From: an uncultured archaeon
GTDB lineage: Archaea; Asgardarchaeota; Lokiarchaeia; Sigyniarchaeales; SOKP01
Assembly: GCA_964525635.1 (NCBI GenBank)
Contig: CAZGJX010000142.1
Location: forward strand, 1-8,893
Direction of reading: 5' to 3'
Length of the DNA stretch: 8,893 nt
Under the pieces are notes generated by a model, which had not been told where the DNA came from, made no database searches, and saw only the letters and a list, made by a program, of their open reading frames with translations. This document shows, in pieces, positions 1,425 through 8,489 of this stretch. The number at the start of each line of letters is the position of its first letter. The first letter of the stretch is position 1. The position numbers and the translations under genes are program-made.

Positions 1425-3140
1425 ATGAGAAAAAATAAAAATAGATTAATGATTTTATTTGGAATTATTTTAATTTTTACTATTTTCATAAGTAGCTTTT
1501 CACCTCTCAATGTTTCAAGTAAGAATAATGGTGATACAGTAATTAATGATGTTGATATTAATCAAAATAATAAGAATTTAAATACTCAGGGATTTACTGA
1601 AGATGATTATACTTCTATTCTGAAAGAAGAATTAAGTAGTTTGGGAAATATAACTGTTCTCAATGCATCTTATCATAACGAAGGTTATTTTAAAAAAGGA
1701 GATTACCCTCATTTAAATGAAGATTATGAGAGTTATGCTCTAAATAGTACATACTACAATACGACATTTATCGAGTCAATTGAACACGCATCGGTAAATT
1801 ACTTAAAAAAAGAATATTTTGAGAATGATGATATGTATGTTAAATTAAATGATAGTGTTGTTTTTGAATATAATAATACTCTAGCTGGGGGTATAGGTGG
1901 ATTAAAAGGATTTATAGTATATCATCCGAAATTAGTAGTAGAGGAAGTTTTGGAAATATATATTAACAACACTAAAATTGATGAGGATCAATATTCAATT
2001 TTAAGCTATAATTTTCTATATTTCAATTATTATGAATATAATGATAATAGAAACAATGATACATTTACATTAGACTTTATCTATTCTCATAAAATCGAGG
2101 TAAAAAATTGGGAGATATCTCAAAATGATATTGATGATTTAATCGCTTATAATTCTAATTCCAATCTCGAAGCAGATTATAATTACTTTTTTGAAATTCG
2201 TAGTGATCAATATAAAGGAGCAAATCTTGGTAGTTCTACCGAAAATTCTAATTTAACTGTAAGTTTAAATGTTAGTCTATATGAGAGAGGTAATTTAGTT
2301 AATTTTAATTTAGCATTAAATGATCAGGAAGTAGATGATATAGTAAATTATGTAGATATGAATAATAATATTATAATCCCTCTATCAGATAATTTTACTT
2401 GCGATAATCATGAATTTTCATTGAATTTCACAAGTAATTTTGAAATTGAGTTTTTAGAAACAGTTGGTGGAAGTTGGGCTATAGATCGATTAATAGCTTC
2501 CAGAGACATAAGAGAAAGAATATACTTCCCATCAGTTATTTCAGGTCCAGAACATTTATTAATTAAATTCTCATTTTATGAATCCTCAATTTATATAGAA
2601 CAATTTAAAGATTGTTATTCGCTTTTTGATAGAGAAGTTGATGTAATAGAAGCTAATAAATCAGATGATGAATCAATTCCAAGAGGTTTAAAAATAAAAA
2701 CACCTTCTCTAATCATTGGAGAAAATGCATGTCCTTTTATGATAAAATATCAGACAAATAAAACAGTCAGAATAATTATAACGGATAATATTAATATGCC
2801 TGTTTGGGATTTAGATGTTGATTTATATTATTACAGTGCATCCTATGGAACATATGTTTCAAAAAATATAACTCAACCAGTAGCTCCTTTAATTGCAAAT
2901 GAGAATGGTGAAATTGTCTTAAGAAATATTCCTCTTGGAGAATATACATTTCGTATATATCGAGAGGGTAGTTTTATTAAAGAAAAGACTATACATATAA
3001 CAACGTTAGAACCTGAGATCTTTTATATTCATACAAATATCCCTCATTTCCCAAGTATTATTCTAGTATTTAGCCTTATGAGTGCCTTATTATTTTTTGT
3101 TGGATTTATTGCATATGTTAAAAATAAAAAAAAGAAATAA
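1425..3140 (+). CDS. Asn-rich, sequon-dense membrane-anchored extracellular protein of unknown function, with a probable prealbumin/carboxypeptidase-regulatory-like beta-sandwich near the C-terminus
   Basis: 571-aa ORF. The N-terminus has a basic stretch plus a hydrophobic signal/anchor (MRKNKNRLMILFGIILIFTIFISSF). The C-terminus has a TM helix followed by a Lys tail (FPSIILVFSLMSALLFFVGFIAYVKNKKKK). There are many N-x-S/T sequons. The segment NENGEIVLRNIPLGEYTFRIYREGSFIKEKTIHI resembles CarboxypepD_reg-type domains; this is recalled from memory, not searched. Confidence 0.75.
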   Translation: MRKNKNRLMILFGIILIFTIFISSFSPLNVSSKNNGDTVINDVDINQNNKNLNTQGFTEDDYTSILKEELSSLGNITVLNASYHNEGYFKKGDYPHLNEDYESYALNSTYYNTTFIESIEHASVNYLKKEYFENDDMYVKLNDSVVFEYNNTLAGGIGGLKGFIVYHPKLVVEEVLEIYINNTKIDEDQYSILSYNFLYFNYYEYNDNRNNDTFTLDFIYSHKIEVKNWEISQNDIDDLIAYNSNSNLEADYNYFFEIRSDQYKGANLGSSTENSNLTVSLNVSLYERGNLVNFNLALNDQEVDDIVNYVDMNNNIIIPLSDNFTCDNHEFSLNFTSNFEIEFLETVGGSWAIDRLIASRDIRERIYFPSVISGPEHLLIKFSFYESSIYIEQFKDCYSLFDREVDVIEANKSDDESIPRGLKIKTPSLIIGENACPFMIKYQTNKTVRIIITDNINMPVWDLDVDLYYYSASYGTYVSKNITQPVAPLIANENGEIVLRNIPLGEYTFRIYREGSFIKEKTIHITTLEPEIFYIHTNIPHFPSIILVFSLMSALLFFVGFIAYVKNKKKK

Positions 3141-3147
3141 GTAAAAT

Positions 3148-3477
3148 TTGATTGTAATTTTCATTGATGACATAGAAGATTTTGTTCAATTTCTGGATAA
3201 ACGTATAATGAATGAGATTTTTTTCGAATTCAGGAAAAAAAGTAAAACAGGTGATCTATCAAATGAAGTTGAGTTTGAAATATTTCTTCATTTTTTATCT
3301 AAAGTAGAAGAATCTATGGTCTTATATGAAACAAAAATTAACATTACTGACTTAAGTACTTCCTTAAATGAAGAGGAAGTAAAAACTAAAATACAAGAAA
3401 TTTTAAGTAAGGTTAATCCTTCTCTTAAATTAATAAAAGGGAAGATCCGTGAGATTTTTCTTTCGTATTCTTTTTAA
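3148..3477 (+). CDS. small hypothetical protein; start uncertain (TTG at 3148, or in-frame ATG at 3208)
   Basis: 109-codon ORF starting 8 nt downstream of the preceding gene on the same strand. No recognisable motif. The track start is TTG, and the first ATG is codon 21 (MNEIFFEF). Its stop overlaps the aIF2-gamma stop on the other strand. Confidence 0.4.
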   Translation: MIVIFIDDIEDFVQFLDKRIMNEIFFEFRKKSKTGDLSNEVEFEIFLHFLSKVEESMVLYETKINITDLSTSLNEEEVKTKIQEILSKVNPSLKLIKGKIREIFLSYSF

Positions 3478-4666
3478 TTTATTCTCTTTCCATAACCAAT
3501 TAGACGATATCTTCGATTTATGATCCTTGAGATAGCAAAAATAAAATTATCAGGTATGCAAACAGGAGGATTTAATTGTATAACATAAGTATCTTTTAAA
3601 ATTTTTTTTACAATTCCGGCGGTCTTTTCAGTTCCTACAACCATAAGTAATCTTTCTCCATGTTTTAAATTATGGATTTTTATCATCTCTTCGGAACCAA
3701 TAACTCTATCTAAAAGATGAACTTCTAGTTCTACTTCCTTAATTATTTCTGGCAAATTATCTAATTTCCCTGCTAAATGACCGATTAATGCATCACCTTT
3801 AGTTAATGCGGGATCTAGTTGTGTTCCAATCCCTATAAGCCCTCCTGGCTTAGCTTCAGTAAGAAAATTACTTCCTTGACTTAAACTTGTGATGATAGAT
3901 TTTATTGGAATATAATCATCTTTTATTTTTAATCCTGGGCGTATTTCTATTTGTTCTCTTAAACTTATTTTTCCTTTTAATACAGATCCTCCAACAACAC
4001 CGCCAACTAGTTTCTCAATTTCAGTTCCAGGTTTATTTACATCAAAAGAACGAGCTATTAAAAATTGAAATTCTTCACTTTCATCAACCTCAGGAGTAGG
4101 AATAAATTCATCAAATGCTCTCACAATAAGCTCAATATTAGCTCCAAAAACAGCAGAGATAGGAATTATTGGTGCATTTTCAGCTACCGTTCCTTTTATA
4201 AAATCTTTAATTTCTTTATAATTTTCAAGAGCTTCTTCTTTATTAACAGCATCAATTTTATTTTGAATAATTATTATATTTTCTATTCCTGCGATATTTA
4301 ATGCAGCTAAATGTTCTCTTGTTTGAGGTTGAGGACAAACCTCATCAGCAGCAATTAATAAACAAGCTCCATCCATAAGAGATGCTCCACTTAACATTGT
4401 CGCCATCAATATTTCATGTCCAGGAGCATCAACGAAGGAGATATTTCTTTTAAATTTCATTTGTCCTTGACAGTTAGGACATTTATATCGAGGTTCTCCT
4501 TTCTTTCTTGAACTTTCTATCATATGTAATGTTGCATATTCATCACATTCTGGACAATATAAAATTGTTGCATTTGAATATCCTAATTTTATAGAAATTC
4601 CTCTTTCTTGTTCTTCTGAGTGCCTATCGGTCCAATCTCCTGTTAAAGCTTTGACTAATGTGGTCT
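3474..4666 (-). CDS. eif2g: translation initiation factor aIF2 gamma subunit, exon 2 (last two bases of the P-loop Lys codon through the stop)
   Basis: The frame of ORF 3474..4523 stays open upstream to 4664. It reads (K)TTLVKALTGDWTDRHSEEQERGISIKLGYSNATILYCPECDEYATLHMIESSRKKGEPRYKCPNCQGQMKFKRNISFVDAPGHEILMATMLSGASLMDGACLLIAADE...IIIQNKIDAV...AENAPIIPISAV...RYRLIGYG. These are the a/eIF2-gamma hallmarks: G2-G5 GTPase motifs (DAPGH, NKID, SAV), a four-Cys zinc knuckle, and domains II/III. The track's M at 4523 is an internal residue. Confidence 0.9.
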
Positions 4667-4695
4667 ATATGGGAAATGCTGAAATAATCATCTCA
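4667..4695 (-). other. 29-nt bulge-helix-bulge (BHB) intron inside the aIF2-gamma coding sequence
   Basis: Minus-strand sequence UGAGAUGAUUAUUUCAGCAUUUCCCAUAU. Removing it joins A4696 to AG4666-4665, which creates AAG (Lys) and restores GHVDHG-K-TTLV in frame. The flanks form a central helix AUGG(4701-4698)/CCAU(4672-4669), 3-nt bulges UA|U and AU|A, an inner 6-bp helix GAGAUG/CAUUUC and an outer 8-bp helix. Details are in the findings. Confidence 0.75.
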
Positions 4696-5110
4696 TACCA
4701 TGATCCACATGTCCTACCAACCCAATGTTGCATTCTGCTTGTTTTATAATTATTTTTTGCATTTTTTTAGCAGAAATATCATCTTTTTTAGGTTTTTTAG
4801 AGATTAGTTTTGTTTCAACTTCAATTTTTTCTAAATGCTCTGTAACTTCTTCAAGTTCTTCTTCAATTTCTATTAAATCTTTTTTTGTATCTATTAAATC
4901 TCCTATTGTATCTTCTAAATCTTCTTCTGAATTCTGTAATAATTTTTTTGCATCCTCTATATATCTTAATGCTGTAGATTCGCCGATACCTTTAACATTT
5001 AATAATTCTCCTAACTTTATATTGGCTATTTTTTCTACGGAATCTATTCCTATAGCTCTCATACGTTCCGCTGTAGTAGTACCTATACCTTTTATTCTTT
5101 CTAACTCCAT
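4696..5110 (-). CDS. eif2g: translation initiation factor aIF2 gamma subunit, exon 1 (about 120-aa N-terminal HhH/acidic/Lys-rich extension plus the start of the G domain up to GHVDHG and the first base of the Lys codon)
   Basis: ORF 4688..5110 ends ...KQAECNIGLVGHVDHG, then MR-stop read from intron sequence. ECNIGLVGHVDHG is the start of the a/eIF2-gamma G1 P-loop. Two HhH motifs lie upstream (IKGIGTTTAERMRAIGI, VKGIGESTALRYIEDA). An alternative internal start, M117 (ATG 4762-4760), would give a canonical-length factor. Spliced CDS is 415+1193=1608 nt, i.e. 535 aa. Confidence 0.85.
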
Positions 5111-5128
5111 AATATTACTTTAAATTTA

Positions 5129-5148
5129 CTATTTCAATCTATTTCAAT
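5129..5148. repeat. perfect tandem direct repeat, 2 x 10 bp (CTATTTCAAT CTATTTCAAT), 19-38 nt upstream of the aIF2-gamma start codon
   Basis: Read directly: 5129-5138 and 5139-5148 are identical. On the gene strand the repeat is ATTGAAATAG x2. Function unknown; it lies in the expected promoter/5' leader zone. Confidence 0.6.
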
Positions 5149-5535
5149 ATTACAATAAAACATGTAAATTATTATTAAGAATGCATTATGAATAATAAAA
5201 CTATTCCAAATTACTTTATGATATCTAAAAAACCGTTATGAGGAACAAGAGTAAAAATTGATAAAATCTATCAAATTAATAAGGAAAGATGATATTTTTA
5301 CAACAAGTTAGTATTTGTCTTTCCAAATATCCAATTATTTTTTTAATTCTTAATGATAAAATCTTGGTTAATTAAGATGTAAAATTCCATTTTAAAAATT
5401 AACTTTATTTAAATAATAACTACTTACTGAAATAACTATATTAATTTATAATAGTTTTATCTTGAATAATTTTAGAAAAAGCATCTAAATAAAGATAAAA
5501 ATAAAAAGAATTTTGACCTTTTTTCTAAACTGAGT

Positions 5536-5772
5536 TTATGAATCTGATTTAAGTGTTTCAATCGTTTTTATTGCGCCAGGTTTTTTTTCTGGTTCAATAT
5601 AAGAAACCCCAAGTTGACTATCTAAAAAGAAAGTCGATGTTTTTCCACAAGTATCTTCATTATGATGAATATAAACAGGAGAGGGATATTTACTATTATC
5701 AATATCATCCTTATTTACTCTAAAGACAATTTTTTGACTACAATGGGGACAAACATTAAATTTAAGTGGCAT
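5536..5772 (-). CDS. small hypothetical protein with a possible CxxC...HH...C zinc-binding site
   Basis: 78-aa ORF: MPLKFNVCPHCSQKIVFRV...VYIHHNEDTCGKTS... It is divergent from the C25-like gene. It contains a CPHC knuckle plus downstream His/Cys. No family was recognised. Confidence 0.5.
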   Translation of the reverse strand: MPLKFNVCPHCSQKIVFRVNKDDIDNSKYPSPVYIHHNEDTCGKTSTFFLDSQLGVSYIEPEKKPGAIKTIETLKSDS

Positions 5773-5874
5773 TTGCTTTTTAAATCAATACATTCTTTCT
5801 TAAAATAAGAAAATTCTTATTTTTAAATTCTTATTTAATTAAATATAAAATTTATATTTTCATATTGAACTGAA

Positions 5875-8019
5875 ATGTTTTTGAAAAAAAGGAAAGAGAG
5901 AAATCTTATAATCTTTTTAATTTTATTCTTATGTCCTATTATATTTGGGAATTATTCTATAAACCTTACTCAAAATCAGATTTATTCTACTCAAATTAAC
6001 ACTTCAGCTAGTATTGCTGAAATAGATTTCTCTCATTTACCTGAAATCGATTATGATGCTTTAAATAAGAGTTGGTATAAACCTAAAATAGAAATGTTGA
6101 TCATTGCTCCAGAAGGAAGAGGGGATTTCATACTTGAATTAGAGCCATTAGTGGAATGGAAAAATCAAAAAGGTGTAAAAACAATAATTTTAGATAATTA
6201 TTCCTTATATGGAGGGAGAGATCCTCAAGAAAGTATACGAAATATGATCAAATCCTTTTATGAATCAGACGGAATTCGATGGGTTTTATTAGCTGGAGAT
6301 GCTCAAGATAATTTACTTCCAATCAGATATGTATATAATCCTGATACAAGAGATATAGGTAGTTCTGAAATTGTAGGTAATCTTGTTTCTAAACCAACAG
6401 ATTATTATTACGCGGACCTCACAGGAGATTGGGATGAGGATGAAGATAATTTATTTGGAGAATCTCAAGAATATAATTCTCATGGTGTTGATGAAATTGA
6501 TTGGATCCCTGAAGTATATGTTGGTAGACTACCAGCTAATAATGCAATAGAATTAGCTAAAATGGTACAAAAAACACTTAAATATGAGAAGAATCCTGAT
6601 GGGGGAGAATGGATGAATAGAATGTTATTAGCTGGAGGGATATCAGATACAATATCTGAAGAACCACCTGATGGTGAAGATGAATCTGTTTTAACAACTT
6701 ATATATGGCAAAATTATGTGCAAGATGAAATGAATTTTACTCACCTTTGGAGATCCACATCAGCATACACACCTCCCGATCCAAAAGAACCTCTTAATCA
6801 AACTAGTTTTATAGATAATTTTAATGAGGGTTATTCTACAATGATGTTCGCGGGCCATGGTGCTCCTTTTTTATATAATGATAAATCAGGGACAATCTAT
6901 ACGAACACAAACGCTCAAAATTGCAACAATACGAATAATCCATCACTTATATATGCTGATGCTTGTTCAACCTCTACATATGATATTGTTTCAGGTACAG
7001 GTAATGATAATAGTATTGGAGAAATATTAATTAATCAATCTAATAAAGGAGCAATTGGTTATGTAGGTGCTCTTAGAGTTACATGGTATTATACTGATGA
7101 TTATGATTTGGAAAGGTTAAATCGTGCAAATGCAAAATTATTTTGGAGAGAATTTTTTGAAGAAAAAAAATTCCAACAAGGAAGAACATTATATGACTCA
7201 AAGGTAACCTATATGAATACAGATTATTATAAATATGAAAGAATTCTCCCCGCCCATAGAGAAGCAGATCGTAAAAATCTCTTAACATATTGTCTCTTGG
7301 GTGATCCTGAGGTGGATATATACACAGGGATACCAAGTGAGGTAGACAATCCTTTTGAACCAAATTACTACGAAGGACAATTACTTAATATTACTATAAA
7401 AGACAATCTTGATAGAATTAGTCCATATCCTAGAGTTCATCTGAAAACAGATGATGGTATATACCATACGGAATATGGAGATAAAAATGGAAATCTGCTT
7501 ATTCGCCTGCCTCCTGGAGCTGGAAAAATATATAACGTCTCAATTTCAGGGCACAATCTTATAATCTCAAATTTTAGCTTTACAACTATAGCAGACACAG
7601 AAAGTCCAGAGATATTATATCATAGTTTAACACCAAGAAATCCCACATTACAATCTCATTTAAATTTTACAGTTATATCCCAAGATAATGAATCAGGTAT
7701 AGAAGGTGTTTTTGTACTCATTTCAAAAGATAATTTTAATAGTTATTTCTATCAAAGATATCCCTATGATTGTCATAAAGATGAGACCGAATTTAATTGT
7801 ATAACCAATCGTTTTGAACCAGGAGATTATAGTTATCTCTATTTCATTCGAGACTATTTGAATCATACAGACATTGTCTATGAATCTACTTTTAAATTTT
7901 CTATTCCAACACCTGTAACGTATTATTTACTTATCGGTAGTGTAGTTGGTATTGGAATAATAACAATTATTTCAATGTATACTGTATATTGGAGTATAAA
8001 AAAAAAAAAGAAAGATTAG
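5875..8019 (+). CDS. membrane-anchored peptidase C25 (gingipain)-like cysteine protease homologue, clan CD
   Basis: 714-aa ORF with an N-terminal signal/anchor (MFLKKRKERNLIIFLILFLCPIIFG). The C25-type N-terminal region reads MLIIAPE...WKNQKGVKT...IRWVLLAGDAQDNLLPIRY...TDYYYADLTGDWDED...EVYVGRLPANNAIELAKMVQKTLKYE. A candidate catalytic dyad is His328 in MMFAGHGAP (CAT 6856-6858) and Cys364 in LIYADACSTS (TGT 6964-6966). The 36-residue spacing is similar to gingipains. The C-terminus has beta-rich domains, then a TM helix and a KKKKKD tail. Confidence 0.8.
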   Translation: MFLKKRKERNLIIFLILFLCPIIFGNYSINLTQNQIYSTQINTSASIAEIDFSHLPEIDYDALNKSWYKPKIEMLIIAPEGRGDFILELEPLVEWKNQKGVKTIILDNYSLYGGRDPQESIRNMIKSFYESDGIRWVLLAGDAQDNLLPIRYVYNPDTRDIGSSEIVGNLVSKPTDYYYADLTGDWDEDEDNLFGESQEYNSHGVDEIDWIPEVYVGRLPANNAIELAKMVQKTLKYEKNPDGGEWMNRMLLAGGISDTISEEPPDGEDESVLTTYIWQNYVQDEMNFTHLWRSTSAYTPPDPKEPLNQTSFIDNFNEGYSTMMFAGHGAPFLYNDKSGTIYTNTNAQNCNNTNNPSLIYADACSTSTYDIVSGTGNDNSIGEILINQSNKGAIGYVGALRVTWYYTDDYDLERLNRANAKLFWREFFEEKKFQQGRTLYDSKVTYMNTDYYKYERILPAHREADRKNLLTYCLLGDPEVDIYTGIPSEVDNPFEPNYYEGQLLNITIKDNLDRISPYPRVHLKTDDGIYHTEYGDKNGNLLIRLPPGAGKIYNVSISGHNLIISNFSFTTIADTESPEILYHSLTPRNPTLQSHLNFTVISQDNESGIEGVFVLISKDNFNSYFYQRYPYDCHKDETEFNCITNRFEPGDYSYLYFIRDYLNHTDIVYESTFKFSIPTPVTYYLLIGSVVGIGIITIISMYTVYWSIKKKKKD

Positions 8020-8304
8020 GTGGAAAATATTTAATTCATGATATTTATTTTTCCTTATATTATTTCATACTACAATTCATATTTATAAAAAAAATAATAA
8101 TATCTAATTTCAAGTAGCTATTTCAATAACACATTTAAATTTAACGGTTAATATCAGTAAAGTTTAATTAGTACGTATAATTAATTCTATTCAATTTAGA
8201 CCATTATATTTTAAGTTATCATTTCATTGAAATCGAGACACTTAAATATTAAATATGGTTGTTTTAGCCATATAAAAAGATAGCATTAAGCTATAACGCT
8301 GGAA

Positions 8305-8417
8305 GTTAAACTTGAAAGCGTTGACAATAGTACTTCTGTTATTATCAGTGGGAAATGTCAAACTGTGAGTTCGCTTACGGTCATAGTCTTCAAGGAAAAT
8401 ACCCGGACCCATCCGAA
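8305..8417 (+). rRNA. rrf: 5S rRNA body segment 1: loop B 3' side, helix II 3' strand, helices V/IV with loop E, helix I capped by UUCG, loop A, helix II 5' strand, helix III 5' strand, and loop C up to CCGAA
   Basis: Landmarks in order: GUUAAAC (8305-8311); CUUGAA (8311-8316) pairing UUCAAG (8389-8394); AGCG (8317-8320); GACA (8323-8326)/UGUC (8356-8359); AGUAC (8329-8333); CUG/CAG hairpin (8336-8348); GGGAAA (8350-8355); ACUGUGAG (8362-8369)-UUCG-CUUACGGU (8374-8381); CAUAG (8382-8386); ACCCGGACCCAUCCGAA (8401-8417). Confidence 0.8.
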
Positions 8418-8447
8418 TGGCTTTCTAAATTATAGAATCTCCGGGAA
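8418..8447 (+). other. 30-nt BHB intron within loop C of the permuted 5S rRNA
   Basis: Sequence UGGCUUUCUAAAUUAUAGAAUCUCCGGGAA. Central helix UCCG(8412-8415)/CGGG(8442-8445), bulges AA|U (8416-8418) and AA|C (8446-8448), and an inner hairpin GG..UUCUA-AAUUA-UAGAA..UC. Removing it makes CCCAUCCGAA+CCCGGAA contiguous. Confidence 0.65.
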
Positions 8448-8454
8448 CCCGGAA
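8448..8454 (+). rRNA. rrf: 5S rRNA body segment 2 (CCCGGAA: end of loop C, helix III 3' strand, and start of the GAAGUUAAAC element completed by back-joining to 8305)
   Basis: After both joins the sequence reads ...ACCCGGACCCAUCCGAA|CCCGGAA|GUUAAACUUGAA..., which matches the conserved 5S helix III/loop C/loop B core. Total body is 113+7=120 nt. Confidence 0.7.
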
Positions 8455-8481
8455 ACGTTTCTTATATGGCTGAATATATTA

Positions 8482-8489
8482 TTTTTTTT
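8482..8489 (+). terminator. oligo-T tract (T8), a likely archaeal transcription terminator for the 5S precursor
   Basis: TTTTTTTT lies 11 nt downstream of the closing helix. Archaeal RNA polymerase terminates at oligo-T runs. The background is AT-rich, so specificity is limited. Confidence 0.4.

What the first reader, a model, noticed from the sequence alone, without database searches (positions are those of the whole stretch)
8266..8471. Circularly permuted 5S rRNA gene: helix I is closed by a UUCG tetraloop and the new termini sit in a BHB processing motif
A canonical 5S runs in this order: helix I 5' strand, CAUAG (loop A), helix II 5', ACCCGG..CCCAUxCCGAAC..CCGGAAGUUAAxC, helix II 3', AGCG, helix V/loop E (AGUAC), helix IV, GGGAA, helix V 3', helix I 3'. 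Here the order is rotated. It begins with GUUAAAC (8305-8311) and the helix II 3' strand CUUGAA (8311-8316). Next come AGCG (8317-8320), GACA (8323-8326), AGUAC (8329-8333), the CUG/CAG hairpin (8336-8348), GGGAAA (8350-8355) and UGUC (8356-8359). Then helix I appears as an 8-bp hairpin, ACUGUGAG (8362-8369)-UUCG-CUUACGGU (8374-8381). It ends with CAUAG (8382-8386), the helix II 5' strand UUCAAG (8389-8394) and ACCCGGACCCAUCCGAA (8401-8417). The natural 5S ends are therefore covalently joined by a tetraloop, and the gene opens between CCCGGAA and GUUAAAC. The new ends are embedded in a BHB. Outer helix: AACG(8295-8298)/CGUU(8456-8459). Central helix: CUGG(8299-8302)/CCGG(8449-8452), with one U-G. 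The bulges are AA|G (8303,8304|8305) and AA|A (8453,8454|8455). Outside this lie a leader hairpin (8280-8294) and the 10-bp closing helix 8266-8275/8462-8471. Endonuclease cleavage and RtcB ligation would join A8454 to G8305 and regenerate ...GAACCCGGAA-GUUAAAC..., the conserved 5S core as I recall it from Methanocaldococcus and Sulfolobus 5S. Helix I has no free ends, so the product would be a circular 5S rRNA, or a linear permuted one if it is not ligated. BHB-dependent maturation of permuted genes is known for tRNAs, and permuted 5S rRNAs have been reported in some organelles. I know of no archaeal chromosomal 5S organised this way.
Basis: partly seen in the sequence, partly recalled or inferred. 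Interest (0 to 1): 0.95.

Follow-up and report, generated by a model that had tools for sequence, protein, structure and literature searches.

The report
Circularly permuted, intron-bearing 5S rRNA gene
This Asgard (Lokiarchaeota-type) archaeon encodes its 5S ribosomal RNA in scrambled order with the normal ends sealed by a tetraloop, so the RNA can only be rebuilt by tRNA-style cutting and ligation, most likely into a closed circle; standard annotation tools cannot see such a gene.

Summary
Window 8305-8454 is a 5S rRNA gene in rotated order. Helix I is a closed 8-bp hairpin with a UUCG loop. The new ends lie in a bulge-helix-bulge (BHB) motif made by leader and trailer inside a 13-bp processing stem.

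It is a 30-nt BHB intron in loop C, leaving a 7-nt second exon.

A covariance model built only from ordinary 5S sequences, rotated in silico, matches 8305-8454 end to end (31.9 bits, E 5e-5). The same model in normal order finds nothing, and Rfam RF00001 gives 16 bits.

I found 74 complete homologous loci (62 distinct mature sequences) in Promethearchaeota MAGs and sediment metagenomes, beside the same C25 peptidase gene wherever flanks were checked (7 loci). The helices and the BHB outer helix covary.

There are two breakpoint classes: 47 loci open at CCGGAA|GUUAAAC and 27 inside loop C. Ten distinct introns all measure 30 nt. Cutting at the canonical BHB sites always restores a 120-123-nt 5S.

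Processing by the splicing endonuclease and RtcB ligase, and a circular mature 5S, are inferred, not shown. I found no precedent in the literature I could search.

The parts
8131..8145 (+). Conserved A/T box 1 (ACATTTAAATTTAAC; CCTTTTAAATTTAAC in relatives). Candidate promoter (BRE/TATA-like) element of the locus.
   Evidence: Found at a fixed distance upstream of the 5S in 63 distinct upstream sequences (64 of the 74 parsed loci), about 196 nt for type A and about 212 nt for type B. A promoter role is inferred, not tested.
8159..8173 (+). Conserved A/T box 2 (AAAGTTTAATTAGTA). Second candidate TATA-like element.
   Evidence: Conserved as AAAGTTTAATTACTAG in both breakpoint classes. Its role is inferred.
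8200..8259 (+). Conserved upstream hairpin (ACCAT 8200-8204 / ATGGT 8255-8259; TTAAG 8211-8215 / CTTAA 8241-8245), probably part of the 5' leader. Function unknown.
   Evidence: The equivalent element AACCATATAAG...CTTATAAAATGGTT occurs in most loci. By eye the stem shows compensatory variants (TACCT/AGGTA, TACCA/TGGTA, GAC/GTC). RNAalifold on the mixed alignment found no consensus structure.
8263..8275 (+). Processing stem, 5' strand (TTTAGCCATATAA). Pairs with 8462-8474.
   Evidence: 13 bp in the window. A stem of 7-17 bp is found in 71 of 71 loci with enough flank, with compensatory variants CCATAT/ATATGG, CCACAT/ATGTGG, CCACAAAA/TTTTGTGG and CCTCAT/ATGAGG.
8280..8294 (+). Leader hairpin ATAGC-ATTAA-GCTAT, between the processing stem and the BHB.
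   Evidence: Conserved with changes on both sides (GCAGC/GCTGC, GTAGC/GCTAC) in relatives.
8295..8298 (+). BHB-1 outer helix, leader strand AACG. Pairs with CGTT 8456-8459.
   Evidence: The first three positions pair in 30-32 of 32 type A contexts and 14 of 15 type B contexts, with pair types GC/UA/GU, CG/GC/UA and GC/AU/UA/CG. 83 of 96 cells pair against 58.8 +/- 4.0 in shuffles; 0 of 5000 shuffles reach the observed value.
8299..8302 (+). BHB-1 central 4-bp helix, leader strand CTGG. Pairs with CCGG 8449-8452, which is the 3' strand of 5S helix III.
   Evidence: C-G, C/U-G, G-C, G-C in 30 of 32 type A contexts.
8303..8305 (+). BHB-1 leader bulge AA|G. Predicted cut between 8304 and 8305; G8305 is the first nucleotide of exon 1.
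   Evidence: The bulge is AAG in 29 and ACG in 3 of 32 type A contexts. Model R1 aligns from exactly 8305.
8305..8417 (+). 5S exon 1 (113 nt), in this order: GUUAAAC, helix II 3' strand, AGCG, helix V/loop E (UAGUAC), helix IV, GGGAAA, helix V 3' strand, closed helix I, CAUAG, helix II 5' strand, helix III 5' strand, loop C up to CCGAA.
8362..8381 (+). Helix I as a closed hairpin: ACTGTGAG (8362-8369), TTCG loop (8370-8373), CTTACGGT (8374-8381).
   Evidence: An 8-bp stem (9 bp in one locus) with a 4-nt loop in 74 of 74 loci, with one stem mismatch in two of them. Loops: UUCG 48, UUUG 10, UUAG 7, CUCG 5, UCCG 4. 6 of the 8 pairs show changes on both sides.
8412..8415 (+). BHB-2 (intron) central helix, exon strand TCCG. 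Pairs with CGGG 8442-8445.
   Evidence: UCCG (UCUG in one) / CGGG in all 10 distinct intron-bearing sequences.
8418..8447 (+). 30-nt BHB intron in loop C. 5' bulge AA|T (8416-8418), inner hairpin 8419-8441, central-helix strand CGGG 8442-8445, 3' bulge AA|C (8446-8448).
   Evidence: Absent from L004 and L033 and from the other type A loci apart from the 10 distinct intron-bearing sequences, where CCGAA and CCCGGAA are contiguous. The 10 distinct introns are all 30 nt, and the base of the inner hairpin covaries (GGC/GUC, AACCA/UGGUU, AUCCA/UGGAU). R1 treats it as an insertion.
8448..8454 (+). 5S exon 2, the 7-nt micro-exon CCCGGAA (helix III 3' strand plus AA).
   Evidence: The R1 alignment ends at exactly 8454.
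8453..8455 (+). BHB-1 trailer bulge AA|A. Predicted cut between 8454 and 8455.
   Evidence: The bulge is AAA, AAG or AAT in type A contexts. Joining A8454 to G8305 gives GAACCCGGAA-GUUAAAC in 47 of 47 type A loci.
8456..8459 (+). BHB-1 outer helix, trailer strand CGTT.
8462..8474 (+). Processing stem, 3' strand (TTATATGGCTGAA).
8482..8489 (+). T8 run, candidate archaeal oligo-T terminator 8 nt after the processing stem.
   Evidence: Read directly from the sequence. T-rich tracts follow the stem in relatives. Inferred.

Best explanation
Window 8263-8474 is the precursor region of the 5S rRNA gene of an Asgard (Promethearchaeota/Lokiarchaeota-type) archaeon, encoded in circularly permuted order.

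Shown by sequence, models and comparison:
- The gene starts at G8305 in the loop B/helix III region.
- It runs through helix II 3', the helix V-IV arm and a helix I closed by a UUCG tetraloop.
- It continues through loop A, helix II 5', helix III 5' and loop C.
- A 30-nt intron (8418-8447) interrupts it.
- It ends with a 7-nt exon, CCCGGAA (8448-8454).
- Leader and trailer form a 13-bp processing stem and a BHB whose central helix borrows the helix III 3' strand.
- The intron carries its own BHB, whose central helix borrows four loop C nucleotides.

Inferred mechanism:
1. The (alpha-beta)2 splicing endonuclease of Asgard archaea cuts after the second nucleotide of each of the four AA|N bulges.
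2. RtcB-type ligase joins A8417 to C8448 and A8454 to G8305.
3. The product is a 120-nt covalently closed circle with the ordinary 5S sequence and fold.
4. Helix I has no free ends and its cap is a conserved 4-nt loop rather than a removable linker. The circle is therefore most likely the mature form that enters the 50S subunit.

The same design, with or without the intron, occurs across a clade. A second version opens inside loop C (ACCCGGUC|CCAUCC). All versions converge on the same mature sequence.
For: Anatomy:
- All motifs sit at the stated coordinates.
- The matured 120-mer folds into the 5S junction as a line and as a circle.

Order-specific model test:
- R1 was built from the Rfam consensus plus a Nitrososphaeria 5S, rotated in silico, with no Asgard sequence in it.
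- R1 matches 8305-8454 over the full model at 31.9 bits, E 5e-5. It matches 22 intron-free type A loci at 38-53 bits.
- The matched collinear model R2 finds an independent ordinary 5S (L012) at 59.7 bits. It finds nothing in the window and only a helix III fragment in permuted loci.
- Rfam RF00001 gives 16 bits against a 38-bit threshold.
- R3, rotated at the loop C breakpoint, matches 27 type B loci over the full model at 30-53 bits (25 of them 38-53). For L032 the match boundaries were checked against the sequence and coincide with the predicted cut sites.

Comparison:
- 74 complete loci, 62 distinct mature sequences of 120-123 nt.
- A conserved C25 peptidase gene lies upstream in all 7 loci whose flanks were checked.
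- De novo RNAalifold on the rotated sequences returns helices I-V with 19 of 29 pairs compensatory.
- 96.8% of cells pair against 82.6% in shuffles and 20-43% when partners are slid. There are 263 double-change cells against 70. 0 of 500 shuffles reach the observed values.

BHB:
- The 4-bp central helix and 3-nt bulges are present in 47 distinct contexts.
- The outer helix covaries.
- The junction product is always the 5S consensus.

Intron:
- It is present in some loci and absent in others.
- All 10 distinct introns are 30 nt, and the inner hairpin covaries.

Cleavage rule:
- It is calibrated by a canonical hBHBh' intron in aIF2-gamma in this same window.

Literature:
- Asgard archaea carry the broad-specificity (alpha-beta)2 EndA with the L1 loop (PMC5829648).
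- Circular 16S and 23S transcripts occur in Asgard archaea (PMC12918454).
- E. coli tolerates a 5S whose native ends are closed by a 4-nt connector (PMC7283268).
Against: - There is no RNA evidence of any kind. Transcription, cleavage, ligation, circularity and presence in ribosomes are all inferred.
- Thermodynamics alone does not favour the double BHB. The precursor MFE is -59.1 kcal/mol against -47.9 with the BHBs enforced. In the MFE structure the leader pairs with the internal GCGUU instead.
- The leader/trailer BHB has at best a 3-bp inner helix (GUU/AAC), and the intron BHB has a displaced outer helix. Both are relaxed motifs.
- The circular 120-mer is not unusually stable (z = -1.3).
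- I could not scan any whole genome of this clade for a second, collinear 5S.
- The cultured relative MK-D1 has an Rfam-detectable 5S (PMC11316595). The permutation is therefore not universal in Lokiarchaeia, and co-existence of both forms in one genome is not excluded.
- With AA|N bulges on both sides, a cut shifted by one on both strands gives the same product in most loci. Only a minority of loci discriminate between the two.
Confidence: 0.75

Rival explanations
1. The gene and the BHB cleavage are as described, but the leader/trailer ends are not ligated. The mature 5S would then be a linear, permuted molecule with a closed helix I. Its termini would lie at the helix III/loop B border in type A loci or inside loop C in type B loci. 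This would resemble the permuted mitochondrial 5S of brown algae.
For: Permuted linear 5S rRNAs exist in brown-algal mitochondria (PMC4267664). Nothing here demonstrates ligation. The ribosome tolerates discontinuities in rRNA (established knowledge of fragmented rRNAs).
Against: Intron-bearing loci need ligation anyway to attach the 7-nt exon. Three different interruption sites would give three different nicked molecules, two of them broken in the conserved loop C. Yet selection preserves exactly the contiguous 5S consensus across each junction in 74 of 74 loci. In archaea, EndA cleavage products of rRNA processing stems are normally ligated into circles (PMC12918454).
Confidence: 0.1
2. The circle is only an intermediate, as for permuted tRNA genes. 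An unknown nuclease would open the helix I tetraloop and yield an ordinary linear 5S with an 8-bp helix I.
For: This is the pathway of permuted tRNA genes in Cyanidioschyzon, cited in PMC4267664. Circular pre-16S and pre-23S are classically thought to be re-linearised (PMC12918454).
Against: The connector is always exactly 4 nt and of a stable tetraloop type: UUCG 48, UUUG 10, UUAG 7, CUCG 5, UCCG 4 of 74. 13 loci have the extra-stable C(UUCG)G closing pair. There is no spacer, no flanking processing motif and no BHB at this position. Permuted tRNA genes, from my own knowledge, have longer variable linkers that RNase P and tRNase Z remove.
Confidence: 0.1
3. The locus is a non-ribosomal or decaying 5S-derived element, such as a pseudogene or a regulatory or retro-element RNA. 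The working 5S would be a normal collinear gene elsewhere in the genome.
For: No whole genome of this clade could be scanned. MK-D1, a cultured Lokiarchaeon, has a normal detectable 5S.
Against: 62 distinct sequences keep every universal 5S motif and all five helices through compensatory changes. Synteny is fixed next to the C25 peptidase gene in all 7 loci whose flanks were checked, and the upstream block is conserved across 63 distinct upstream sequences. That pattern indicates purifying selection on a functional 5S fold, not decay. No collinear 5S was found in the 18 loci scanned with Rfam, except in two unrelated archaea. Failure to predict any 5S has been reported for two closed Asgard genomes of another class, Heimdallarchaeum (PMC8813620).
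Confidence: 0.04
4. The arrangement is an assembly artefact, for example mis-joined tandem 5S copies.
For: Both data sources are metagenome assemblies.
Against: The same arrangement with unique flanks appears in more than 80 independently assembled contigs from many samples and in four MAGs. The window's own sequence was recovered in two independent assemblies, JGI Ga0315555_1016957 and Logan SRR9710702. The helix I strands are joined by 4 nt, not by a spacer.
Confidence: 0.01

Closest known systems
Circularly permuted tRNA genes expressed through a circular intermediate. Cyanidioschyzon merolae is cited in PMC4267664. An archaeal case in Thermofilum pendens is from my own memory.
   Same: The 3' part of the RNA is encoded upstream of the 5' part. 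Leader and trailer pair into a BHB. Splicing endonuclease and ligase would join the outer ends.
   Different: In tRNAs the native ends are joined by a linker that RNase P and tRNase Z remove, so the circle is transient. Here the native ends are sealed by a conserved tetraloop with no sign of re-opening. The RNA here is 5S rRNA, and it also carries an intron.
Circular pre-16S/23S rRNA intermediates, circularly permuted 23S rRNA of Pyrococcus and Thermococcus, and circular 23S within archaeal ribosomes (PMC7758197; bioRxiv 10.64898/2026.03.23.713588; PMC12918454)
   Same: A long processing stem contains a BHB. EndA cleavage and ligation of the rRNA ends follow. A circular or permuted rRNA is the functional ribosomal component. 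The pathway operates in Asgard archaea.
   Different: Those genes are collinear, and the ligation joins the natural 5' and 3' ends. Here the gene itself is permuted, and the ligation rebuilds an internal helix III/loop C region. That literature states that 5S is not processed this way.
Permuted mitochondrial 5S rRNA of brown algae and other stramenopiles (Valach et al. 2014, PMC4267664; Rfam mtPerm-5S)
   Same: Helix I is replaced by a closed hairpin, and standard 5S models miss or under-score the gene.
   Different: It is organellar. The termini lie at the alpha/gamma domain junction. The RNA stays linear and permuted in the final product. There is no BHB, no ligation and no intron.
Archaeal BHB introns in rRNA, tRNA and a few mRNAs (established knowledge; EndA types in PMC5829648)
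   Same: The 30-nt insert has AA|N bulges, a 4-bp central helix and an inner hairpin. It is present in some loci and absent in others, like a typical small archaeal intron.
   Different: I found no report of an intron in a 5S rRNA gene. This one leaves a 7-nt terminal exon and shares its 3' exon with a second, overlapping BHB.
Engineered circularly permuted 5S (cp5S) in E. coli (Huang et al. 2020, PMC7283268)
   Same: The native 5S ends are closed by a 4-nt connector and the molecule is opened in loop C or D. The ribosomes work and the cells are viable.
   Different: It is artificial. The cp5S is fused into 23S rRNA rather than ligated into a free circle.

Membership tests
5S rRNA (Rfam RF00001) | Three-way junction with helices I, II-III and IV-V | tested here: met
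   Met after in-silico maturation and rotation. MFE of the 120-mer as a line and as a circle. De novo RNAalifold on 62 sequences. 96.8% pairing with 19 compensatory pairs; 0 of 500 shuffles reach this.
5S rRNA (Rfam RF00001) | Universal single-stranded motifs: loop A CAUAG, loop C CCAUCCGAAC, CCGGAAGUUAA, loop E UAGUAC with GGGAA | tested here: met
   These columns are invariant or nearly invariant in alignment A2, which includes the Rfam consensus and two ordinary archaeal 5S sequences. The window is 54-58% identical to those three references over 110-113 aligned positions.
5S rRNA (Rfam RF00001) | Collinear gene order reaching the curated gathering score (38 bits) | tested here: not met
   No hit at gathering in the window or in 4 homologous loci. 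16 bits, E = 1.4 in E-value mode. The matched collinear model R2 gives no window hit at E <= 10.
5S rRNA (Rfam RF00001) | Full-length match to a 5S covariance model once the order is rotated | tested here: met
   R1: window 8305-8454, 31.9 bits, E 5e-5; intron-free type A loci 38-53 bits. R3: type B loci 30-53 bits, 25 of 27 at 38-53. E-values are rough because calibration was shortened.
5S rRNA (Rfam RF00001) | Component of the large ribosomal subunit | not testable with these tools
   Needs RNA from purified 50S subunits or a cryo-EM structure.
BHB (hBHBh') substrates of the archaeal splicing endonuclease | Two 3-nt bulges on opposite strands separated by a 4-bp helix | tested here: met
   BHB-1: CUGG/CCGG with bulges AAG and AAA; conserved in 47 distinct contexts. 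BHB-2: UCCG/CGGG with bulges AAU and AAC; conserved in all 10 distinct introns.
BHB (hBHBh') substrates of the archaeal splicing endonuclease | Flanking helices on both sides (strict motif) | tested here: inconclusive
   BHB-1 has an outer helix that is present and covaries, but its inner helix is at most GUU/AAC. BHB-2 has a strong inner hairpin that covaries, but its outer helix is displaced by a 5-nt loop. Both are relaxed motifs. Asgard EndA is of the broad-specificity type (PMC5829648).
BHB (hBHBh') substrates of the archaeal splicing endonuclease | Cutting at the 2|1 position of each bulge yields a functional product | tested here: met
   It restores the 5S consensus in 74 of 74 loci. 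The same rule restores the aIF2-gamma reading frame at a canonical BHB in this window.
BHB (hBHBh') substrates of the archaeal splicing endonuclease | The BHB conformation is the predicted minimum-energy fold of the precursor | tested here: not met
   MFE -59.1 kcal/mol against -47.9 with the BHBs enforced. The competing pairing is not supported by covariation.
BHB (hBHBh') substrates of the archaeal splicing endonuclease | Actual cleavage by EndA and ligation by RtcB | not testable with these tools
   Needs an in vitro assay or RNA-seq junction reads.
Circularly permuted RNA genes processed via a circular intermediate (permuted tRNA type) | The 3' part is encoded upstream of the 5' part, with a leader/trailer BHB | tested here: met
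Circularly permuted RNA genes processed via a circular intermediate (permuted tRNA type) | The native termini are joined by a removable linker that end-processing enzymes cut to re-linearise the RNA | tested here: not met
   The connector is a conserved 4-nt tetraloop in 74 of 74 loci, with no spacer or processing motif.
Permuted mitochondrial 5S (mtPerm-5S type) | Linear product with termini at the alpha/gamma junction and no ligation | tested here: not met
   Here the termini lie in the beta domain (helix III/loop C) inside a BHB. Definition of the family taken from PMC4267664. No Rfam family reached its gathering score.

The most novel reading that the evidence does not exclude
A clade of Asgard archaea uses a covalently closed circular 5S rRNA as the mature component of its ribosomes. 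The circle would be made from permuted genes by the tRNA-splicing endonuclease and RtcB. In some members the gene also contains an intron. The genes have at least two independent or migrated breakpoints. If so, the 'missing 5S' of some Asgard genomes would be an annotation blind spot, and 5S biogenesis in these relatives of eukaryotes would depend on the splicing machinery.
Probability: 0.6. Interest if true: 0.95.

Novelty: new variant of a known kind. Interest (0 to 1): 0.9.

Why it matters
5S rRNA is treated as essentially constant and trivially easy to annotate in archaea, bacteria and nuclear genomes (PMC7594248; PMC4267664). Several points follow from this locus.

- **Annotation gap.** The gene is invisible to the standard model. 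That gives a concrete, testable explanation for genomes in which no 5S can be predicted; this has been reported for two closed Heimdallarchaeum genomes (PMC8813620). Permuted models such as R1 and R3 could be run on every Asgard genome.
- **A new kind of 5S.** If the product is circular, it would be the first circular 5S rRNA. It would extend the recent finding of circular 23S in archaeal ribosomes to the one rRNA explicitly said not to follow that route.
- **New dependence on splicing enzymes.** 5S maturation would rely on the splicing endonuclease and RtcB.
- **Firsts in the searchable literature.** It is the first 5S intron and the first permuted chromosomal rRNA gene I could find.
- **Evolution of permuted genes.** Two breakpoints plus an intron, all within about 25 nt and all reusing helix III CCGG or loop C UCCG as the BHB central helix, offer a natural series for studying how permuted genes and BHB introns arise and move.
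- **Structural prediction.** It predicts a specific feature in Asgard ribosomes: a capped helix I and no 5S termini.

Tried and rejected
- **Rfam and ARAGORN.** Rfam at gathering threshold and ARAGORN found nothing in the window. This is informative only as the expected failure of collinear models.
- **Scoring the rearranged sequence with RF00001.** I built rotated (R1, R3) and matched collinear (R2) models from the Rfam consensus plus L003 instead.
- **Three-sequence rotated alignment.** A first version including L012 was misaligned by MAFFT in helix IV/V and was dropped.
- **Join A8447>G8305.** I considered keeping 8418-8439 as a loop C expansion, giving a 143-nt product that also folds like 5S. 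I rejected it because no BHB places a cut at 8447|8448 together with 8304|8305. Relatives without the insert are contiguous at CCGAA-CCCGGAA, and the insert has its own conserved BHB.
- **Promoter call retracted.** I first took CTTAAATA 8241-8248 for the promoter. It is the 3' arm of a conserved upstream hairpin.
- **Upstream leader structure.** RNAalifold on the upstream leader alignment gave no consensus structure. The hairpin is supported only by eye.
- **Precursor MFE.** It does not show the BHBs. I recorded this as evidence against rather than discarding it.
- **Sigma-70 promoter scan.** Not used, because it is not applicable to archaea.
- **Literature.** Ten searches found no archaeal permuted or circular 5S and no 5S intron. 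The library lacks most subscription journals, so absence is not proof.
- **False positives removed.** L083, L084, L086 and L071 from the metagenome pattern scan, and 27 of 31 genome hits, were chance matches.
Full report
**1. The observation**

On the + strand the region reads as follows:
- processing stem 8263/8266-8275;
- leader hairpin 8280-8294;
- AACG, then CUGG, then AA|G (8295-8305);
- GUUAAAC, helix II 3' strand, AGCG, the helix V/loop E/helix IV arm, GGGAAA, helix V 3' strand;
- helix I as an 8-bp hairpin capped by UUCG (8362-8381);
- CAUAG, helix II 5' strand, ACCCGGACCCAUCCGAA (to 8417);
- CCCGG, AA|A, CGUU (8448-8459);
- the other strand of the processing stem (8462-8474);
- a T8 run (8482-8489).

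No Rfam family reaches its gathering score anywhere in the window, and there are no tRNAs. In E-value mode RF00001 gives 16 bits (E = 1.4, threshold 38), and only the 3' half is convincingly aligned. It does so also when folded as a circle.

**2. Where the window comes from**

The neighbouring genes are archaeal: aIF2-gamma with an N-terminal helix-hairpin-helix domain, a C25 peptidase and a DHH phosphoesterase. G+C content is 25-33%.

A DNA pattern that requires the 3'-half motif GGGAA to be followed by CAUAG and loop C has 0 expected matches in shuffles of the window. It found four homologous loci among 185,579 representative genomes. Three are labelled Promethearchaeota archaeon and one uncultured archaeon.

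The C25 peptidase gene lies immediately upstream of the element in all of them. In more distant relatives fetched through that protein, the whole block (orf571, orf109, aIF2-gamma, small ORF, C25, 5S) is conserved. The window's own sequence occurs in two independent assemblies.

**3. Formal test of the permutation**

The tools cannot score an edited sequence against Rfam. I therefore built three covariance models from the same two ordinary sequences, with the Rfam consensus structure. The two sequences were the Rfam 5S consensus and the collinear 5S of a Nitrososphaeria MAG, L003.

- **R1** is rotated to start at GUUAA, with the native ends closed by UUCG.
- **R2** is left collinear.
- **R3** is rotated to start inside loop C.

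No Asgard sequence went into any of them.

R1 matches the window over the full model at exactly 8305-8454, with 31.9 bits and E 5e-5. The 30 nt at 8418-8447 are treated as an insertion. With filters off it gives 21.7 bits for 8305-8418. R1 matches 22 intron-free relatives over the full model at 38-53 bits.

R2 finds an independent ordinary 5S (L012, Nanoarchaeia) at 59.7 bits. It finds nothing in the window at E <= 10. In permuted loci it finds only the helix III/loop C fragment, at 10-24 bits.

The order matters, and the permuted order is the one that fits.

**4. Comparative evidence**

A second pattern constrains only single-stranded 5S motifs in permuted order. It retrieved 89 metagenome stretches. 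After removing four chance hits, 74 loci were complete enough to parse.

Cutting each locus at the predicted sites and rotating gives 62 distinct sequences of 120-123 nt. These align end to end with ordinary 5S sequences. The window is 54-58% identical to the three references.

RNAalifold, run without any guidance, returns helices I to V with 29 pairs. 19 of these have compensatory double changes. Counting on that structure gives the following:
- 96.8% of cells pair, against 82.6% in shuffles and 20-43% when partners are slid;
- 263 cells carry double changes, against 70 in shuffles;
- 0 of 500 shuffles reach any of the five measures.

Helix I is an 8-bp hairpin (9 bp in one locus) with a 4-nt loop in 74 of 74 loci. 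The loops are UUCG 48, UUUG 10, UUAG 7, CUCG 5 and UCCG 4. This is a gene family under selection for the 5S fold. It is neither a curiosity of one contig nor an assembly artefact.

**5. Processing signals**

*Processing stem.* Leader and trailer form a stem of 7-17 bp in 71 of 71 loci with sufficient flank, with compensatory variants.

*Leader/trailer BHB.* Inside the stem sits a BHB:
- a 4-bp central helix (C-G, C/U-G, G-C, G-C);
- 3-nt bulges on opposite strands;
- an outer helix of three or more pairs whose pair types vary (GC/UA/GU; CG/GC/UA; GC/AU/UA/CG).

The outer helix pairs in 83 of 96 cells, against 58.8 +/- 4.0 when trailers are shuffled among loci. 0 of 5000 shuffles reach the observed value.

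The central helix uses the 3' strand of 5S helix III. The precursor and the mature RNA are therefore alternative conformations.

*Caveat.* The MFE of the window's precursor does not contain the BHBs: -59.1 against -47.9 kcal/mol with them enforced. In the MFE structure the leader AACGC pairs with the internal GCGUU. But the leader varies together with the trailer (4.2 of 5 Watson-Crick pairs), not with that invariant internal site (2.5 of 5).

*Motif type.* The inner helix of this BHB is weak (GUU/AAC at most), so the motif is of the relaxed type. Asgard archaea are reported to have the (alpha-beta)2 endonuclease with the L1 insert that confers broad specificity (PMC5829648).

**6. The unmentioned 30 nt are an intron**

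L004, L033 and the other type A loci apart from the 10 distinct intron-bearing sequences read ...CAUCCGAA-CCCGGAA... without interruption. The window and nine other distinct sequences carry an insert at exactly this point.

All ten inserts share these features:
- a length of 30 nt;
- a central helix UCCG (UCUG in one) / CGGG;
- bulges AA|N and AA|C;
- a 23-nt inner hairpin whose base differs completely between lineages yet stays paired (GGC/GUC, AACCA/UGGUU, AUCCA/UGGAU, AAUCAUC/GAUGGUU).

In the window the second exon is only 7 nt (CCCGGAA, 8448-8454). Its CCGG is at the same time the central-helix strand of the leader/trailer BHB. The two BHBs therefore abut.

**7. A second breakpoint class**

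In 27 of the 74 loci (type B, for example L032 and L061) the gene opens inside loop C instead:
- leader ...GCG-CUGG-AA|C-CAUCCGAACCCGGAAGUUAAAC...
- trailer ...ACCCGG-UC|A-CGC...

Here the leader's CYGG pairs with the 5' strand of helix III. Cutting 2|1 and ligating gives ACCCGGUC-CCAUCCGAAC. This is the same sequence that type A loci encode contiguously.

R3 matches all 27 type B loci tested over the full model at 30-53 bits (25 of them at 38-53). For L032 I checked the match boundaries against the sequence, and they coincide with the predicted cut sites. Type A loci score 21-29 bits with R3, and the type B loci reported by R1 score only 15-21 bits with it.

There are thus three interruption sites within about 25 nt: B, the intron and A. 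All reuse helix III CCGG or loop C UCCG as the BHB central helix. All converge on one mature sequence. This is hard to explain unless the ligated product is what selection sees.

**8. Calibration of the cleavage rule in the same window**

The aIF2-gamma gene (minus strand) is interrupted inside GHVDHG|K|TTLV by 29 nt (4667-4695). Orthologues in L032 and L033 are uninterrupted.

The mRNA strand folds into a canonical hBHBh' motif:
- outer helix AUGUGG.UC / GA.CCACAU;
- 5' bulge UA|U;
- central helix AUGG/CCAU;
- 3' bulge AU|A;
- 6-bp inner helix.

Cutting after the second bulge nucleotide and ligating restores GAU CAU GGU AAG ACC = DHGKT. A cut shifted by one creates a stop codon. This organism therefore very probably splices non-tRNA BHB substrates, and the 2|1 rule applies.

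**9. Mechanism: shown and inferred**

Shown:
- permuted gene order;
- a sealed helix I;
- a conserved, covarying processing stem and BHBs;
- an intron that is present in some loci and absent in others;
- exact regeneration of 5S at the canonical cut sites.

Inferred:
- transcription from the conserved upstream A/T boxes (8131-8145, 8159-8173) to the T8 run;
- cleavage by EndA;
- ligation by RtcB;
- a 120-nt circle as the mature 5S.

I rate the circle as most likely for four reasons.
1. Ligation is needed anyway for the micro-exon.
2. The three interruption sites preserve only the ligated sequence.
3. The helix I cap is a fixed tetraloop, not a linker.
4. E. coli ribosomes tolerate a 5S with its native ends closed by 4 nt (PMC7283268).

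The rivals are a linear permuted product, re-opening at helix I, a non-functional copy and an assembly artefact. They are scored in the report sections.

**10. Relation to what is known**

Related phenomena are known:
- permuted tRNA genes;
- circular pre-rRNAs and circular or permuted 23S (PMC7758197, PMC12918454, bioRxiv 10.64898/2026.03.23.713588);
- permuted organellar 5S (PMC4267664).

This locus differs from each in a defining respect; see the membership table. The recent literature says archaeal 5S is not processed by excision and circularisation (PMC12918454).

Ten full-text searches found no archaeal permuted or circular 5S and no 5S intron. The library omits most subscription journals, so prior description cannot be excluded.

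One paper notes that no 5S could be predicted in two closed Heimdallarchaeum genomes (PMC8813620). MK-D1, by contrast, has a detectable 5S (PMC11316595). The permutation is therefore a derived trait of a subclade. Whether it also explains the Heimdallarchaeum case is open.

**11. Verdict**

I class it as a new variant of a known kind: a BHB-processed permuted RNA gene, now for 5S rRNA, with an intron and no evident re-opening. Its interest is high.

The main weaknesses are two. There is no RNA-level evidence. And I could not exclude a second, collinear 5S elsewhere in these genomes.

Noticed in passing
window 4667-4695 (minus strand), within the aIF2-gamma gene 3474-5110: A 29-nt canonical hBHBh' intron interrupts the P-loop codons (GHVDHG|K|TTLV) of aIF2-gamma. 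Splicing at the 2|1 bulge positions restores the frame and the invariant Lys. Orthologues in L032 and L033 lack it. BHB introns in protein-coding genes are rare, and I know of none reported in Asgard archaea.
   Followed up: yes
L032 5931-6050, L061 188-308 and 25 further loci (type B): Related loci carry a second permutation class of the same 5S gene, opened inside loop C (ACCCGGUC|CCAUCCGAAC) rather than at CCGGAA|GUUAAAC. It has its own leader/trailer BHB, whose central helix uses the 5' strand of helix III.
   Followed up: yes
window 8131-8145, 8159-8173 and 8200-8259: A block of about 130 nt upstream of the 5S processing stem is conserved at fixed spacing in 63 distinct upstream sequences of both classes. 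It has two A/T boxes (CCTTTTAAATTTAAC and AAAGTTTAATTACTAG) and a hairpin of about 55 nt. The hairpin stem (AACCATATAAG/CTTATAAAATGGTT) resembles the 5S processing stem. It could be a promoter plus leader element or a separate small RNA.
   Followed up: partly
window 4688-5110 (minus strand); L032 971-2518; L033 788-2344: aIF2-gamma in this lineage carries an N-terminal extension of about 115 aa with a helix-hairpin-helix domain (Pfam HHH_5). The protein is 515-518 aa, whereas aIF2-gamma is usually about 410 aa (the usual length is from my own knowledge).
   Followed up: no
L073 1483-1603 (minus strand): A type B-like locus has a deviant leader (…AAGGGACCAAAUUCCGAAC…) and trailer (ACCCGGUCACUCCUU). 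The 4-bp central helix is not evident and loop C seems shortened. R3 still gives it 40.9 bits. It may be a degenerate copy or a third variant.
   Followed up: partly
window 8296-8321: In the precursor MFE the leader ACGCU (8296-8300) pairs with AGCGU (8317-8321) of the 5S body instead of forming the BHB. This may be a competing or regulatory conformation, or only an artefact of the energy model.
   Followed up: partly
window 1425-8019 and loci L032, L033: The gene order orf571, orf109, aIF2-gamma, small ORF, C25 peptidase, 5S is conserved across relatives at 50-77% protein identity. A stand-alone 5S gene is therefore tied to a translation-factor and surface-protease neighbourhood rather than to an rRNA operon.
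   Followed up: partly
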